Origin: a phage
DNA length: 64,000 nt
Assembly (NCBI GenBank): GCA_014913405.1
Contig: GCA_014913405.1_3931.1
Reading direction: 5' to 3' (one strand)
Shown here: positions 10,719 to 47,182 of the stretch, piece after piece
Numbering within the stretch: the stretch's first letter is position 1
Layout: each line of letters begins with the position of its first letter
Position numbers and translations under genes: made by a program
Notes under the pieces: model-generated
The model's database searches: none
Seen by the model: the letters and a program-made list of their open reading frames with translations, nothing else
Told to the model about the DNA's origin: nothing

Positions 10719-11788
10719 TTAACCAGCACCCAATCTTTTTAGGTGGTGAGAGAAAAACTTTTGACTCACTTAATAAACACTACCCAAAAATCTTTGAGCT
10801 ATATAAACAACAAAAAGCGCAAGACTGGTCAGAAGATGAGTTCCCTTTTGAACAATCACGTCTTGATTTTGAAAGTGTGCCAGCATCAATGTCAGGTGTA
10901 ATGCTTGAGATTCTTAAGTGGCAGTGGGAAGCAGATACCCAAGTTGCTAAAAGTTTAGCGTTTGCTTTTGCACCATTCATCTCTGATGACATTTATGCAA
11001 CTGCAATTATGAAGCAGTCTGAGATTGAAAACCTACACGCCCTGACTTACTCGGAGATTGTAAGGCAATGTATTAAAAATCCTGAAACAATCTTAGATGA
11101 GATTAACCAGAACATTGCTGTACAAGACCGATTAAAAACTGTGAATCGTGTTCTTGAAGAATTGCTGGATGAAGGTATAAACTATCGACTGAGTTATGTC
11201 CGTGATTCACTTCTGGACAAAGACCCTTTACACTTCCATAAAGTGATTCTGAAAGGTCTATTTGCAGTGACTGCACTGGAAGGTATATCTTTTATGGCAT
11301 CCTTTGCATGTACTTTTGCACTTGATGCTCAAGATAAATTTCAGGGGATTGCTCAAGCTGTTCAGAAAATTATGCTTGATGAAATCCTTCACACTAAAAT
11401 TGATATTGAAGTTTTAAAAGAAACTTTAAGAGATGATGAGTGGCAAAAAGCTTTCCAACAAATTCTTCCAGAGATTAAAGTAATCTTAGATGAAGTAGTT
11501 GAAAGTGAAGAAAAATGGTCGTATTATATCTTCTCCGAAGGACGTGCTGTAGTTGGTTTAAATACAAAGCTTCTTCATGAGTGGGTTTACTATAATGCTG
11601 CCCCACTGTATGATATGTTTGGCATTCCCAGAGATTTTGTAGCTCCTAAAGAACCACCTTTGAAGTATATGATTAAGAAGATGGAAATTGATAAAGAGCA
11701 GAATGCTAATCAGGAGCAACAGAACGGTGCGTACTTATTGAATACTGTTGTAGATGATTTGAATAGTGGATTTTTAGAGGTTCCTTAA
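10715..11788 (+). CDS. nrdB: ribonucleoside-diphosphate reductase beta subunit (class I)
   Basis: ferritin-like di-iron protein directly after nrdA; ATG at 10715 after AAAGGAG (track start 10655). Confidence 0.85.
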   Translation: MINQHPIFLGGERKTFDSLNKHYPKIFELYKQQKAQDWSEDEFPFEQSRLDFESVPASMSGVMLEILKWQWEADTQVAKSLAFAFAPFISDDIYATAIMKQSEIENLHALTYSEIVRQCIKNPETILDEINQNIAVQDRLKTVNRVLEELLDEGINYRLSYVRDSLLDKDPLHFHKVILKGLFAVTALEGISFMASFACTFALDAQDKFQGIAQAVQKIMLDEILHTKIDIEVLKETLRDDEWQKAFQQILPEIKVILDEVVESEEKWSYYIFSEGRAVVGLNTKLLHEWVYYNAAPLYDMFGIPRDFVAPKEPPLKYMIKKMEIDKEQNANQEQQNGAYLLNTVVDDLNSGFLEVP

Positions 11789-44590: not shown

Positions 44591-44962
44591 ATGAAAAACA
44601 GAACAAACAAAGGCCAGTTTAAAAAAGGCCAGTCTGGAAACCCATCTGGAAGACCAAAAGGCTCTCGTAACAAAAGCTCACTTGTAAAAGCTCAACTGAC
44701 CATTGATAATTCTGCTGAGTTTGCTGCAAAGTTGTTTGAAGCAATTGTTACAAGGGATGCTGCTAAGCTTGCAGAGTTCGGGTTAAACACAGACGACGTA
44801 ACCATCAAGAGCATGATTGAGGTCGGTAAAACTATCATGACTCACTCAGCAGGTGAGATGAAAGCCATTGCAGCAGACACTAAGAAGACTCCTGATAATG
44901 GTGGTCAGTCTCAGACAGATAACAAACCAACGTTCTCTGCTGTAGCGACTCTTAAAAAATAA
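44591..44962 (+). CDS. hypothetical protein with N-terminal GNPSGRPKG motif
   Basis: ORF track; Gly/Pro/Lys-rich N terminus. Confidence 0.45.
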   Translation: MKNRTNKGQFKKGQSGNPSGRPKGSRNKSSLVKAQLTIDNSAEFAAKLFEAIVTRDAAKLAEFGLNTDDVTIKSMIEVGKTIMTHSAGEMKAIAADTKKTPDNGGQSQTDNKPTFSAVATLKK

Positions 44963-45043
44963 TTTTAAAAGATGTTGACAGACTCTACAAAGTTGCTCTA
45001 AAGTCTGTCACATCAAACAACAAATGAGAGAAGAGAGTAAAAT

Positions 45044-46459
45044 ATGAGCGAATTATTTAAACATGCGCACCTTCATGCAGGTCGAACTGAAAATGGTGCT
45101 GTAAACCATACTTCATCAATGTCTGCTCTTGTAGACTTTTACAAAGCTGCTGGTTCAAGCCGTAGCAACGTAGAAATCTTACCAGACCTGTTCTACAAAG
45201 CTTTGCGTGAGGATGTTGATGTTGCAGTTCGTATTTTGCTTCATATGCGAGATGTACGAGAAGGTATGGGTGAGCGTAAAGCCTTCAGAACTGTTTTGCT
45301 TCAAGCAATTGAAGATAAAGTTTTAGAGCCTACACAGGTTCTTCGCATTATGGATAAGATTGCAGAACTTGGTCGTTTTGATGACTTCAAAATCTTCGTG
45401 GGTACTTGTTTCGAGACAGATGCCTTCAAACATTTAGAAGCAGCATTACTAGACCCTGCAACAGCAGGTTTGGCGGCTAAGTGGTTACCACGAGTAAAAC
45501 CACGTCATAAGCAGTTTGTAAAACGTTTCTGCAAGTTTGCCAACTTGAGTGAGAAAGAGTACCGCACACTGTTGTCTGCACTATCTGATACAGTTGAGCA
45601 AAAAATCTCTGCTAATGAGTTTGGTAAGATTGACTACAGTAAGATTCCTTCACTTGCTGCTGCACGTTACCAAAAACTGTTTAACCGTAAAGATGGAGAG
45701 CGTTACAAAGCTTACATCGAGTCCTTATCAAAAGGTGAGACTAAGATTAGCGCTGGTGCTGTTTACCCATACGATGTGATTAAATCTGTCAAGCATGGTA
45801 ATGCAGATGTTGCTAATGAGCAGTGGAAAGCACTACCAAACTGGATGGCAGAAGGTGAAAACATCTTGTGTATGTCTGATGTATCAAGTTCAATGTCTTG
45901 GGTGAATTTTGGCTCCATTACTGCTCTGGATATTGGTGTATCACTTGCCTTGTATGTAGCAGAACGCAATACAGGTTGCTTTAAGAATGAGTTGATGGTT
46001 TATTCAACAAACCCTCACTTCATCGAACTGAGTGGTGATTTACGAAACCGTCATCGTCAGGTGATGCGACACGTTGAATATGGCTCAACTAACTTACAAG
46101 CAGCTTTTGACCGCATTCTTGAGACAGGCAAAAGAAACAACTTGACTCAGAAAGATATGCCAAGTAAGCTTATCATCTTCTCCGATATGGAGTTTAATCA
46201 GGTTGATGGGGCTAACGGTCGTACAAACTTTGAAGCAATTCAGAGTAAGTACAAAAAAGCTGGATATGAGATGCCACAACTGGTATTCTGGTACTTAGCA
46301 AACCGTAATGGTACTTGCGAAGTATCTGTTAAGGATAACGGTGTAGCAATGGTATCAGGGTTCTCTCCAGCCACTTTAAAAGCTCTGCTTGGTGGTGAGA
46401 AGTTTGACCCAATCAGTGTAATGCTCAAAGCAGTAATGATTGACCGTTATATCTGGTAA
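45044..46459 (+). CDS. vWA-like protein with MIDAS motif (DxSxS)
   Basis: ILCMSDVSSSMSW matches the MIDAS DxSxS signature; 471 aa. Confidence 0.4.
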   Translation: MSELFKHAHLHAGRTENGAVNHTSSMSALVDFYKAAGSSRSNVEILPDLFYKALREDVDVAVRILLHMRDVREGMGERKAFRTVLLQAIEDKVLEPTQVLRIMDKIAELGRFDDFKIFVGTCFETDAFKHLEAALLDPATAGLAAKWLPRVKPRHKQFVKRFCKFANLSEKEYRTLLSALSDTVEQKISANEFGKIDYSKIPSLAAARYQKLFNRKDGERYKAYIESLSKGETKISAGAVYPYDVIKSVKHGNADVANEQWKALPNWMAEGENILCMSDVSSSMSWVNFGSITALDIGVSLALYVAERNTGCFKNELMVYSTNPHFIELSGDLRNRHRQVMRHVEYGSTNLQAAFDRILETGKRNNLTQKDMPSKLIIFSDMEFNQVDGANGRTNFEAIQSKYKKAGYEMPQLVFWYLANRNGTCEVSVKDNGVAMVSGFSPATLKALLGGEKFDPISVMLKAVMIDRYIW

Positions 46460-46477
46460 AAAGTTTTAAAAAGGGTA

Positions 46478-46506
46478 TTGACAATGTGTTTAATACCCTT
46501 TAATAT
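46478..46506 (+). promoter_or_regulatory. sigma70-like promoter, TTGACA-17-TAATAT, upstream of the tRNA cluster
   Basis: -35 TTGACA at 46478-46483, -10 TAATAT at 46501-46506; sits inside hairpin AAGGGTATT...AATACCCTT. Confidence 0.45.
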
Positions 46507-46623
46507 GTTCTACATAGAAACGAAATGAGAGCTTTTCTAAGATACTGAAAAATATTTTAAAAAGTTCTTGACAACCACTAAAAAATAATGTTAAAGTGGT
46601 TACATAGAGTTTGAAAAGTTTAT

Positions 46624-46700
46624 CTCTGTTTAGCTCAGCTTGGTAGAGCGTTCCGTTTGGGGCGGTAAGGCCGGAGGTTCAAGTCCTCCAACAGAGACCA
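46624..46700 (+). tRNA. tRNA-Pro (anticodon TGG)
   Basis: hand-folded cloverleaf: 7-bp acceptor stem, T-loop GGTTCAAGTCC, anticodon loop TTTGGGG, CCA encoded. Confidence 0.65.
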
Positions 46701-46707
46701 AATTAAT

Positions 46708-46785
46708 GTTCCAGTGGACAAAATGGTAAAGTCACCACTCTTTCAAAGTGGATATTTGAGGGTTCAAATCCCTTCTGGAACGCCA
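46708..46785 (+). tRNA. tRNA-Glu (anticodon TTC)
   Basis: acceptor GTTCCAG/CTGGAAC, anticodon arm CCACT-CTTTCAA-AGTGG, T-loop TTCAAAT. Confidence 0.65.
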
Positions 46786-46877
46786 GTTTTGACAGAAGAC
46801 CAATTACAGCAAACTTAATCTTATTCATCTGAAGGTAAATCGGACAAAGAAGAGATTTGGTCTGGTCATTAAGAATT

Positions 46878-46953
46878 GCGGGTATAGAGAAAGGGCGTCT
46901 CACATGTCTCATTAGCATGGTATCGGCAGGTTCGACTCCTGCACCCGCCTCCA
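46878..46953 (+). tRNA. tRNA-Met (anticodon CAT)
   Basis: T-loop GGTTCGACTCC, anticodon loop CTCATTA. Confidence 0.55.
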
Positions 46954-47036
46954 AATTTACAGAAGACCGTTTACAGCAATATTTATTAAATTTTTAGCGG
47001 AAAAATTGAAAGATACGGTCTGGTAATACTAAACAT

Positions 47037-47113
47037 GGTTAGGAAGCACATAAGGTATGTGCGGTCGCCTGTTAAGCGAATGGCACAGGGTTCGAATCCC
47101 TGACTAACCGCCA
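47037..47113 (+). tRNA. tRNA-Asn (anticodon GTT)
   Basis: T-loop GGTTCGAATCC, anticodon loop CTGTTAA. Confidence 0.6.
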
Positions 47114-47182
47114 AATTTAGGAGAGAAGCGATTGCTCACCGATTTGTAAGGTGCAAGTCCTTAGCCTGAATAGAAATCAAAT

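What the first reader, a model, noticed from the sequence alone, without database searches (positions are those of the whole stretch)
44591..46459. vWA/MIDAS protein and GNPSGRPKG-motif protein directly upstream of the tRNA cluster
The 471-aa protein has a clear MIDAS motif (DVSSSM) typical of vWA domains. Ro60/Rsr-type RNA-binding proteins combine a TROVE domain with a C-terminal vWA domain and are often encoded next to tRNA-like Y RNAs. Here the MIDAS lies at about residue 285, leaving only around 180 residues after it, which argues against a C-terminal vWA in the Ro60 arrangement. The adjacency to the structured-RNA-rich tRNA cluster keeps the idea open, but it is only a hypothesis; an alternative is a vWA protein involved in virion assembly or host interaction.
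Basis: inference. Interest (0 to 1): 0.45.

Follow-up and report, generated by a model that had tools for sequence, protein, structure and literature searches.

The report
Phage Ro60-like protein with partner RNAs
The 471-residue protein is a phage version of the ring-shaped RNA-binding protein Ro60 (already shown by others to defeat a bacterial defence), and just downstream, hidden among the tRNA genes, lie four small hairpin RNAs that look like its so far unidentified RNA partners and that closely resemble an enigmatic RNA class of social amoebae.

Summary

New here: the likely partner RNAs are not the tRNAs. They are four same-strand hairpins in the tRNA spacers (46790-47637). Each has a covarying closing stem followed by unpaired UUACAGCAA. 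The longest holds a circularly permuted tRNA-like domain (T arm, stem-loop, D arm), as in bacterial YrlA Y RNAs. The same hairpin type flanks the homologous gene in all 13 phage lineages examined and in 49 of 75 metagenomic viral loci (108 gene-strand hits against 27 opposite). It is absent from the tRNA cluster of T5, which lacks the gene.

Its design matches dictyostelid Class I RNAs. Protein-RNA binding is inferred, not shown.

The 123-aa GNPSGRPKG protein (DUF5681) is probably the small terminase subunit and is not part of this system.

The parts
44591..44962 (+). DUF5681 protein, 123 aa, GNPSGRPKG at residues 16-24. Probably the small terminase subunit, not part of the Ro-like system.
   Evidence: Pfam DUF5681 E 2e-14. 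Homologues occur only in Felix-like phages and are always annotated hypothetical. Two distant DUF5681 homologues, on three metagenomic contigs, lie directly upstream of and overlap a large terminase gene. terL of this phage lies beyond the tRNA cluster.
44975..45004 (+). sigma-70-like promoter in front of the Ro-like gene
   Evidence: TTGACA-18-TAAAGT, 10 of 12 matches. Consensus match only.
45044..46459 (+). Ro60-like protein (DUF2828 helical ring plus DUF7788 vWA), 471 aa. Orthologue of wV8 gp47 and Bas63 gp130.
   Evidence: 98% identical to Bas63 gp130, which counters the ppl defence (PMC11482910).
45878..45892 (+). MIDAS motif D279-x-S281-x-S283; completed by T349 and D381
   Evidence: All five residues invariant in 48 homologues. 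11 of 48 members hit Pfam vWA_Ro60.
46470..46501 (+). 12-bp hairpin right after the stop codon, overlapping a promoter-like site (46478-46506). A second promoter-like site lies at 46568-46597 in front of the tRNA cluster.
   Evidence: Consensus scans only.
46790..46868 (+). hairpin RNA c1 (between tRNA-Glu and tRNA-Met): outer stem UGAC/GUCA, AGA/G internal loop, stem AGACCAA/UUGGUCU, unpaired UUACAGCAA
   Evidence: Fold. CM R1 44.2 bits, E 6e-8, but it is a training member. Rfam Dicty_Class_I_RNA 19.7 bits.
46957..47026 (+). hairpin RNA c2 (between tRNA-Met and tRNA-Asn): UUAC/GUAA, AGACCGU/ACGGUCU, UUACAGCAA
   Evidence: CM R1 50.7 bits, training member. Rfam Dicty_Class_I_RNA 20.1 bits. In SUSP2 the outer stem is UUGC/GCAA, a compensatory change.
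47413..47492 (+). hairpin RNA c3: GAGC/GCUC, AGACCAA/UUGGUCU, AUACAGCAA
   Evidence: z -2.5. CM R1 43.3 bits, training member.
47500..47637 (+). long hairpin RNA c4. It has the same closing stem and UUACAGCAA. Its interior holds a V-like hairpin, a T arm (47559-47575, GAGGG UUCGAUU CCUUC), a 7-bp stem-loop (47576-47593) and a D arm (47595-47611, GUGU AAUGGUA GCAC). This is a circularly permuted tRNA-like domain in the YrlA order.
   Evidence: Folds. The middle stem-loop has three different, fully paired sequences in window, SUSP2 and Mordin. Weak Rfam tRNA hit at 47526-47576, 18.8 bits. Rfam YrlA does not hit.
46624..51835 (+). cluster of 26 tRNA genes in which the hairpins are embedded. The spacers between a hairpin and the neighbouring tRNAs are 4-10 nt, so tRNA processing would release the hairpins.

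Best explanation
ORF 45044-46459 encodes a phage paralogue of the Ro60/Rsr ring protein: a HEAT-like helical ring closed by a C-terminal vWA domain with a MIDAS site. The four hairpins c1-c4 in the adjacent tRNA operon are its Y-RNA-like partners. They are transcribed with the tRNAs and set free by tRNA 5' and 3' processing. Each offers the same module, a closing stem with a small internal loop followed by single-stranded UUACAGCAA, which I infer to be the docking site for the protein. This corresponds to the GGUCCGA/GNCGAA bulged helix of Y RNAs. The variable loops, and in c4 a tRNA-shaped domain, would then tether or gate the ring towards other factors such as tRNA enzymes, exoribonucleases or RNA-repair enzymes. 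The RNP belongs to the phage's tRNA/RNA-maintenance and counter-defence toolkit. The protein itself is known experimentally to neutralise the ppl defence system. SHOWN by computation: the fold; the family; the RNA structures with covariation; the genomic linkage of the hairpin family to this gene family across phages. SHOWN by others' experiments: the anti-ppl activity of the 98%-identical Bas63 gp130. INFERRED: expression and processing of the hairpins; binding to the protein; what the complex does.

For: RNA: all four elements fold alike, and the outer and inner stems covary between copies. Yersinia phage P778, whose protein is 53% identical, keeps three elements with compensatory stems (GGACUGU/ACAGUCC and others).

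Linkage: the motif lies next to the homologous gene, on its strand, in 13 of 13 lineages: Ounavirinae, Yersinia, Aeromonas (8 copies), Mycobacterium, Listeria, Campylobacter, Staphylococcus, Enterococcus, Bacillus, Sinorhizobium, Synechococcus, Ralstonia, and Vibrio where it sits in the 5' UTR. In those loci there are 48 gene-strand hits, 8 opposite-strand hits and about 7.8 expected from shuffles. In 75 unselected IMG/VR loci there are 108 against 27 hits, 57 of them within 500 nt of the gene.

CM R1 finds held-out elements in Listeria, Ralstonia, Enterococcus and Vibrio at 27-42 bits (E 1e-3 to 4e-7). It finds nothing else in the 64-kb window below E 0.5, and nothing in the T5 tRNA region. 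All 7 stem pairs change on both sides.

Long variants with a T arm, stem-loop and D arm occur in Felix-like phages and in Mycobacterium, Enterococcus, Bacillus and Ralstonia phages. The mycobacteriophage one gives a partial Rfam YrlA hit (38.3 bits, E 5e-5).

Context recalls bacterial rsr-yrlA-rtcBA operons: RtcB and RNA ligases lie next to the gene in Listeria and Aeromonas phages. Canonical phage Ro60 binds adjacent Y-like RNAs (PMC12135203; PMC4201824). Function: Bas63 gp130 counters ppl (PMC11482910).
Against: No binding or expression data exist for the hairpins. gp130 alone, from a plasmid or from the T7 genome and so without these RNAs, rescues T7 on a ppl host. The one known activity therefore does not need them, or uses host RNAs instead. 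Pfam TROVE does not match any of 48 family members. Rfam Y_RNA and YrlA do not match c1-c4 even in an 881-nt search. The canonical GNCGAA Ro-binding motif is absent. 22 of 75 metagenomic loci show no motif under my strict definition. The covariation count is partly circular, because elements were picked for complementary stems. Tight linkage to the gene would also fit cis-regulatory sites.
Confidence: 0.6

Rival explanations
1. The protein works alone as a protein-level inhibitor of the ppl defence, through its ring or its MIDAS site. The hairpins are unrelated punctuation of the tRNA operon: processing sites, stabilisers or spacers.
For: gp130 without any Felix RNA restores T7 growth on ppl hosts. 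In the window the hairpins sit 4-10 nt from the flanking tRNAs. vWA MIDAS sites usually bind proteins.
Against: The hairpins follow the gene, not the tRNAs. In Staphylococcus phage 6ec and Mycobacterium phage Krypton555 three hairpins abut the gene with no tRNA beside them. The 24-tRNA cluster of T5, which lacks the gene, has none on the tRNA strand. 57 of 108 metagenomic hits lie within 500 nt of the gene. A conserved single-stranded 7-9-mer points to a specific reader.
Confidence: 0.2
2. The hairpins are bound by the protein but act in cis, as operators through which it autoregulates its own mRNA and the tRNA operon. They are not free Y-like RNAs.
For: In Vibrio phage VH7D the only copy lies in the 5' UTR and start of the gene's own mRNA. 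In many phages the copies lie directly upstream of the gene, ending 13-108 nt before the start codon.
Against: Phages carry 3-8 tandem copies with unrelated loops, often downstream of the gene. There are variants with a full tRNA-like domain. In the window the elements lie between tRNAs, where processing would excise them.
Confidence: 0.12
3. One reading: a vWA protein used in virion assembly or host adhesion.
For: Some phage vWA proteins act with MoxR chaperones in assembly (PMC7824862). The gene lies between a terS-position gene and terL.
Against: The full-length fold is Ro60, not an isolated vWA domain. No MoxR partner is present. The neighbours are tRNAs and RNA-repair genes. The protein has a demonstrated intracellular counter-defence role and works when expressed from a plasmid.
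Confidence: 0.03

Closest known systems
Ro60/Rsr with Y RNAs, especially bacterial YrlA (Rfam RF02553) and the rsr-yrlBA-rtcBA operon
   Same: A helical ring plus a C-terminal vWA/MIDAS. Several small RNAs encoded next to the gene on the same strand. One RNA carries a circularly permuted tRNA-like domain (V, T, stem-loop, D) closed by a long stem. RtcB or RNA ligases are neighbours in some phages.
   Different: No sequence-level TROVE match. The N-terminal domain is about 90 residues shorter. The conserved RNA module is stem plus UUACAGCAA instead of the GNCGAA/GGUCCGA bulged helix. Rfam YrlA does not detect c4. Most copies are short hairpins with no tRNA-like part.
Bas63 gp130 (Escherichia phage JohannRWettstein, MZ501086), counter of the ppl defence (PhageMaP preprint, PMC11482910)
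   Same: The same gene: 98% identity and the same synteny. Ro60 likeness and possible Y RNAs were already proposed there.
   Different: That work suspected that some annotated tRNAs are the Y RNAs and named none. Here the candidates are the unannotated spacers, partly hidden under spurious minus-strand ORFs (bas63_0137/0138, wV8 gp48).
Dictyostelid Class I RNAs (Rfam RF01414; Kjellin et al. 2021, PMC7919456)
   Same: About 50-70 nt long. A 6-8 bp stem joins the ends, with the structure conserved but not the sequence. The motif (CC)UUACAGCAA follows the 5' strand directly. The RNA starts AAG and ends CUGU, with the G paired to the C. Genes are many, with unrelated loops. The Rfam model hits only these phage elements (6 hits, 20-30 bits).
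   Different: Eukaryotic, dispersed genes with a DUSE promoter. All phage scores are below the gathering score (41.5). The known direct binder is the RRM protein Rnp1A. The class is reported as unique to Dictyostelia. No tRNA-like variants are known.
Thermus phage phiLo Ro60 with Yrl1/Yrl2 (PDB 9KOP, 9L5Y; PMC12135203)
   Different: phiLo Ro60 is a canonical TROVE protein and its RNAs carry the CGAA motif.
Stable RNAs of unknown function in the T5 and T4 tRNA regions
   Same: Small non-tRNA RNAs, some tRNA-like, co-encoded with phage tRNAs.
   Different: T5 has no DUF2828 gene and no motif in its tRNA cluster.

Membership tests
Pfam DUF2828 + DUF7788 (PHROG 850 'RNA-binding protein') | Match to both profile HMMs above the curated cut-off | tested here: met
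   DUF2828 106.4 bits (cut-off 29), DUF7788 148.8 bits (cut-off 27.1). PHROG 850 E 1.8e-182 over the full length.
Ro60 / TROVE proteins | N-terminal HEAT-like helical ring (TROVE fold) | tested here: met
Ro60 / TROVE proteins | Sequence match to Pfam TROVE (PF05731), or to a solved Ro60 by sequence | tested here: not met
   No TROVE hit for the protein or for any of 48 relatives at E up to 10. No PDB hit by phmmer or by profile.
Ro60 / TROVE proteins | C-terminal vWA domain with a MIDAS (DxSxS, T, D) | tested here: met
   D279, S281, S283, T349 and D381 invariant. Pfam vWA_Ro60 hit in 11 of 48 relatives, best E 4.7e-4.
Ro60 / TROVE proteins | Binds Y RNA on the outer ring surface and misfolded RNA in the cavity | not testable with these tools
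   Needs RIP, EMSA or a structure.
YrlA Y RNA (Rfam RF02553) | Covariance-model score at or above gathering (69 bits) | tested here: not met
   No hit to c4 at E up to 10 in 881 nt. The mycobacteriophage counterpart scores 38.3 bits over the tRNA-like part only.
YrlA Y RNA (Rfam RF02553) | Permuted tRNA-like domain: T arm, then acceptor-like stem-loop, then D arm, closed by a long stem | tested here: met
   c4 has GAGGG UUCGAUU CCUUC, then ACUCGGC AGAU GUCGAGU, then U G GUGU AAUGGUA GCAC. The same order occurs in five other lineages.
YrlA Y RNA (Rfam RF02553) | GNCGAAN0-1G Ro-binding motif near the 5' end | tested here: not met
   Absent from c1-c4 by reading the sequence. UUACAGCAA stands in its place.
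Dictyostelid Class I RNA (Rfam RF01414) | Short stem joining the ends, plus an 11-nt motif with U3, C6, C9, A10, A11 next to the 5' strand | tested here: met
   c1 AAUUACAGCAA and c2/c4 GUUUACAGCAA fit all five positions. c3 AAAUACAGCAA misses U3. Motif definition from PMC7919456.
Dictyostelid Class I RNA (Rfam RF01414) | Covariance-model score at or above gathering (41.5 bits) | tested here: not met
   Window c1 19.7 and c2 20.1 bits. Aeromonas phage 28-30 bits. Cyanophage 23.6 bits.
Dictyostelid Class I RNA (Rfam RF01414) | Conserved ends AAG...CUGU, with the G paired to the C | tested here: inconclusive
   Exact in the Aeromonas, Listeria and Ralstonia phage copies. In the window it is AGAAG...CUGG(U). 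The RNA ends have not been mapped.
Small terminase subunit (for the 123-aa DUF5681 protein) | Gene directly upstream of terL; oligomeric DNA-binding protein | tested here: inconclusive
   Distant DUF5681 genes overlap the start of terL in three contigs. In this phage, about 7 kb holding the Ro-like gene and the tRNA cluster separate it from terL. No similarity to Staphylococcus phage 6ec TerS and no PDB hit.

The most novel reading that the evidence does not exclude
The phage hairpins and the dictyostelid Class I RNAs are one RNA family, defined by a closing stem, (U)UACAGCAA and AAG...CUGU ends. Its ancestral partner would be the DUF2828 Ro60-like protein, a family also present in giant viruses and eukaryotes. 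Class I RNAs would then be Y-RNA analogues of viral or ancient origin rather than a dictyostelid invention. The uncharacterised Class I pull-down protein DDB_G0281243 might be the DUF2828 orthologue.
Probability: 0.3. Interest if true: 0.92.

Novelty: new variant of a known kind. Interest (0 to 1): 0.8.

Why it matters
The Ro60-like protein of Felix-like phages is one of the few phage counter-defence factors with a known target (ppl) but no known mechanism. Naming its probable RNA partners, with exact coordinates and a motif that can be mutated, makes that mechanism directly testable.

The hairpin family is linked to the DUF2828 gene in phages of Proteobacteria, Firmicutes, Actinobacteria, Campylobacterota and Cyanobacteria. 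This points to a second, previously unrecognised branch of Ro-Y-type ribonucleoproteins, in which the tRNA-mimic module of YrlA is joined to a different protein-docking module.

The near-identity of that module with dictyostelid Class I RNAs offers a lead into a 20-year-old puzzle. These are abundant RNAs needed for normal development, with no known mechanism, and thought to be unique to social amoebae.

In practice, annotation pipelines currently call spurious ORFs across these elements.

Tried and rejected
1. Sequence searches of the protein and of a 48-sequence profile against PDB chains gave nothing relevant. NCBIfam gave nothing. Only fold comparison revealed Ro60.

2. Rfam at gathering thresholds found only tRNAs. 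At permissive E-values there was no Y_RNA or YrlA hit in the window.

3. The idea that annotated tRNAs are the Y RNAs, as in the PhageMaP suggestion: no sign of it. ARAGORN calls all 26 as tRNAs with anticodons, and Rfam's tRNA model scores 24 of them above its threshold; the other two, tRNA-Met 46877-46953 and tRNA-Tyr 47183-47270, get only weak tRNA-Sec hits. None carries the hairpin motif.

4. Weak tmRNA-like hits at 47959-48263 probably reflect T-arm and tRNA fragments. Not pursued.

5. DUF5681 as part of the Ro system: rejected. It is confined to Felix-like phages, while the Ro-like gene and the hairpins are widespread. DUF5681 compared with Staphylococcus phage 6ec TerS gave no similarity.

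6. Whether Dictyostelium DDB_G0281243 is a DUF2828 protein could not be settled. The afdb50 fold library was unavailable. Avesson 2011 is not held. The supplements do not describe the protein.

7. Outgroup Class I candidates listed by Kjellin et al. are mostly at noise level, 25-27 bits, so they do not support a wide eukaryotic distribution.

8. Literature searches for DUF2828, YrlA, Ro-like plus Felixounavirus, and the motif string found no description of these RNAs.
Full report
**What the window is.** The region is 98.5% identical to Escherichia phage wV8 and is present in 253 Felix O1-like phage records. The finding covers wV8 genes 46 and 47. They lie between a leftward block of lysis and tail genes and a rightward cluster of 26 tRNA genes, followed by terL and the portal gene.

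**Check of the observation.** Both ORFs are as described. The 123-aa product carries GNPSGRPKG at residues 16-24 and matches Pfam DUF5681. The 471-aa product carries DVSSSM at 279-284 and matches DUF2828 (N-terminal part) and DUF7788 (residues 274-455). It also matches PHROG 850, labelled 'RNA-binding protein', end to end. In an alignment of 48 homologues down to 42% identity, the whole MIDAS set (D279, S281, S283, T349, D381) is invariant. So are several arginine- and glycine-rich motifs of the helical part, for example R69-D70-x-R72-x-G74-x-G76-E77-R78.

**The protein is a Ro60 paralogue.**
- Sequence methods do not reach Ro60. There is no PDB hit by phmmer or by profile, and no Pfam TROVE hit in any of 48 members.
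- The AlphaFold2 model is confident (mean pLDDT 89.7, pTM 0.89).
- Two independent fold comparisons give only Ro60 proteins as full-length matches. In Foldseek the 11 best hits are Xenopus, human, Deinococcus and Thermus-phage Ro60.
- Eleven relatives also touch Pfam's Ro60-specific vWA model.
In this protein, as in Ro60, the vWA domain is the C-terminal domain. The ring-forming part is simply shorter (about 270 against about 360 residues; the Ro60 figure is from general knowledge).

**Prior art.**
- RefSeq already names the product 'RNA-binding protein'. Mycobacteriophage homologues (about 33% identity over the full length) are annotated 'Ro-like RNA binding protein'.
- The PhageMaP preprint (PMC11482910) studied Bas63, a Felixounavirus whose gp130 is 98% identical to this protein with identical synteny.
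- Deleting g130 cripples plaque formation on a host carrying the ppl defence (ATPase plus PHP domain), and complementation restores it.
- gp130 from a plasmid or inserted into T7 rescues T7 on that host.
The partner RNAs were not identified.

**The RNA elements in the window.**
- Reading the spacers of the tRNA cluster showed a unit repeated four times, all on the + strand: c1 46790-46868, c2 46957-47026, c3 47413-47492, c4 47500-47637.
- All fold the same way. Each has a 4-bp outer stem that differs between copies but stays paired (UGAC/GUCA, UUAC/GUAA, GAGC/GCUC). Then come a 3x1 internal loop (AGA/G) and a 7-8 bp stem (AGACCAA/UUGGUCU or AGACCGU/ACGGUCU). Directly after its 5' strand is an unpaired (U/A)UACAGCAA.
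- c1-c3 have AU-rich loops of 35-50 nt.
- c4 encloses four helices: a V-like hairpin, a T arm with a canonical GGUUCGAUUCC loop, a 7-bp stem-loop, and a D arm preceded by U-G and carrying A14, A15, G18, G19 and A21.
- That order (V, T, acceptor-like stem-loop, D, closed by a long stem) is the circularly permuted tRNA-like domain that defines bacterial YrlA Y RNAs (PMC4201824).
- It is not an artefact of two adjacent tRNAs. The middle stem-loop is a self-contained perfect hairpin with three different sequences in window, SUSP2 and Mordin, each fully paired.
- The hairpins stand 4-10 nt from the flanking tRNAs, so RNase P and tRNA 3' processing would excise them (inference).
- c3 and c4 are covered by an annotated minus-strand ORF (wV8 gp48; bas63_0137/0138), which is probably spurious.

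**Linkage to the gene family across phages.**
- The protein family occurs in 710 phage records from very different hosts.
- I fetched the locus from 13 lineages and scanned for a stem of at least 6-7 bp, then 2-4 nt, then CAGCAA.
- Every lineage has the element on the gene's strand, usually within a few hundred nucleotides:
  - Yersinia P778: 3 copies, with compensatory stems relative to Felix.
  - Aeromonas 4_4572: 8 copies with 8 different stems, the last ending 13 nt before the start codon.
  - Mycobacterium Krypton555: 3 copies directly downstream.
  - Listeria LMSP-25: 3 copies directly upstream.
  - Campylobacter PC14: 2 copies. Staphylococcus 6ec: 3. Enterococcus VRE9_2: 4. Bacillus MrDarsey: 5. 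Sinorhizobium phiM19: 2. Synechococcus BUCT-ZZ01: 2. Ralstonia RSP15: 5.
  - Vibrio VH7D: one copy, in the 5' UTR of the gene.
- Over these loci (167 kb) there are 48 gene-strand hits, against 8 on the opposite strand and about 7.8 expected from shuffles.
- In an unselected sample of 75 further viral metagenome loci encoding 38-47% identical relatives, there are 108 gene-strand hits against 27 opposite. Of these, 57 lie within 500 nt of the gene, and 49 loci have at least one within 1.5 kb.
- A covariance model built from 26 short elements recovers elements of lineages that were not used to build it. Scores are Listeria 41.6 and 36.3 bits; Ralstonia 39.4, 39.3 and 27.7; Enterococcus 39.2, 35.9 and 31.7; Vibrio 27.1.
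- The model finds nothing else in the 64-kb window below E 0.5. It also finds nothing in the tRNA region of T5, which has many tRNAs but no DUF2828 gene.
- All seven stem pairs show changes on both sides, with 98.6% of cells paired. That count is partly circular, because complementarity was a selection criterion. The strand and position statistics are not circular.
- Long variants with the tRNA-like T/stem-loop/D domain inside the same closing module occur in Felix-like phages and in Mycobacterium, Enterococcus, Bacillus and Ralstonia phages. Variants with only a T arm occur in Yersinia and Bacillus phages.
- The mycobacteriophage element gives a partial, sub-threshold hit to Rfam YrlA.

**Resemblance to dictyostelid Class I RNAs.**
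- The only Rfam family that touches the short hairpins is Dicty_Class_I_RNA. There are six sub-threshold hits of 20-30 bits, all exactly on my elements and none elsewhere.
- Kjellin et al. (PMC7919456) define Class I RNAs as follows:
  - about 60 nt long;
  - a 6-bp stem joining the ends, whose structure but not sequence is conserved;
  - an 11-nt motif CCUUACAGCAA directly after the 5' strand, with U3, C6, C9, A10 and A11 invariant;
  - conserved ends AAG...CUGU, with the G paired to the C.
- The phage elements share each of these. Examples are Aeromonas uAAGAAUCAU-UACAGCAA...AUGAUUCUGU and Listeria AGGAAUC-UAACAGCAA...GAUUCCUGU.
- The paper reports the class as unique to Dictyostelia.
- DUF2828 proteins also occur in giant viruses of protists and in plants (papers found).
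- A pull-down with a Class I RNA recovered, besides the RRM protein Rnp1A, an uncharacterised protein, DDB_G0281243. I could not determine its family.
- Common descent, or a shared protein-recognition logic, is therefore a lead and not a result.

**Most likely mechanism.**
- The protein is a Ro60-type ring.
- The hairpins are its Y-like RNAs, docking through the stem plus UUACAGCAA module.
- Loop diversity, and the tRNA mimic in c4, provide adaptor functions as in Ro60-Y RNA-PNPase complexes (PMC4201824, PMC12135203).
- The RNP sits in a phage module devoted to tRNA supply, RNA repair and counter-defence.
- RtcB and RNA ligases are neighbours in Listeria and Aeromonas phages.
- Against a strict requirement for the RNAs: gp130 alone suffices against ppl in T7.
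- The main rivals are a protein-only inhibitor with unrelated spacer hairpins, and cis-acting autoregulatory sites.

**The second protein.** DUF5681 homologues are confined to Felix-like phages and are never named. Two distant DUF5681 genes in metagenomic phage contigs sit directly upstream of, and overlap, a large terminase gene. In Staphylococcus phage 6ec the gene before the Ro-like gene is the annotated small terminase. The 123-aa protein is therefore most likely TerS, with the Ro-like and tRNA module inserted between terS and terL. This is positional inference only.

**Verdict.** The protein part is already known. The partner-RNA family, its breadth and its Class I likeness appear to be new: nothing in the literature held here describes them. 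RNA binding remains to be shown.

Noticed in passing
window 47474-47731 (-): An 85-aa ORF, annotated as wV8 gp48 and as bas63_0137/0138 in Bas63, lies antisense to hairpins c3 and c4. It is probably a spurious gene call over structured RNA.
   Followed up: partly
window 48485-48559 (+): A tRNA-like element not called by ARAGORN (Rfam tRNA-Sec model 23 bits; T-loop GGTTCAACTCC at 48542), directly 5' of tRNA-Ser 48579. Yersinia phage P778 has a counterpart (L002, about 11430-11500).
   Followed up: no
window 47959-48263 (+): Weak tmRNA_permuted (29.2 bits, E 0.006) and tmRNA hits between tRNA-Ile and tRNA-Arg. The best promoter-like site of the region (48033-48061, 11 of 12) lies inside.
   Followed up: no
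L011 (Listeria phage LMSP-25) 1941-2039, 4428-4979, 8808-12521: The tRNA cluster next to the Ro-like gene also holds a drum RNA (50.2 bits, above gathering) and a ROOL-like RNA (88.5 bits, just below gathering). RtcB and a second RNA ligase follow the gene.
   Followed up: no
L017 (Synechococcus phage BUCT-ZZ01) 695-1095: A phage-encoded tmRNA (94.5 bits, above gathering) lies 4 kb upstream of the Ro-like gene.
   Followed up: no
L024 (phage T5) 11585-11661 (-): A well-formed 9-bp stem plus UACAGCAA hairpin in a phage without a DUF2828 gene, outside the main tRNA cluster. The T5 record also lists eight 'stable RNAs with unknown functions' among its tRNAs.
   Followed up: partly
L009 (Vibrio phage VH7D) 5960-6010: The only motif copy starts right after a promoter-like site and forms the 5' UTR of the Ro-like mRNA (CM 27.1 bits). 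This could mean autoregulation.
   Followed up: partly
L020 4001-5546; L022 4001-5540; L023 269-1808: Distant DUF5681 genes overlap the start of a large terminase gene in metagenomic phage contigs. This suggests that the whole DUF5681 family is a small terminase subunit.
   Followed up: partly
window 46470-46501 (+): A 12-bp hairpin immediately after the Ro-like stop codon contains a TTGACA promoter-like hexamer. It may be a combined terminator and promoter at the gene/tRNA-operon boundary.
   Followed up: no
L003 (Citrobacter phage Mordin) 5751-5821: The covariance model found a c1-equivalent copy (36.8 bits) that my strict pattern scan had missed, so the pattern-based counts are lower bounds.
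   Followed up: yes
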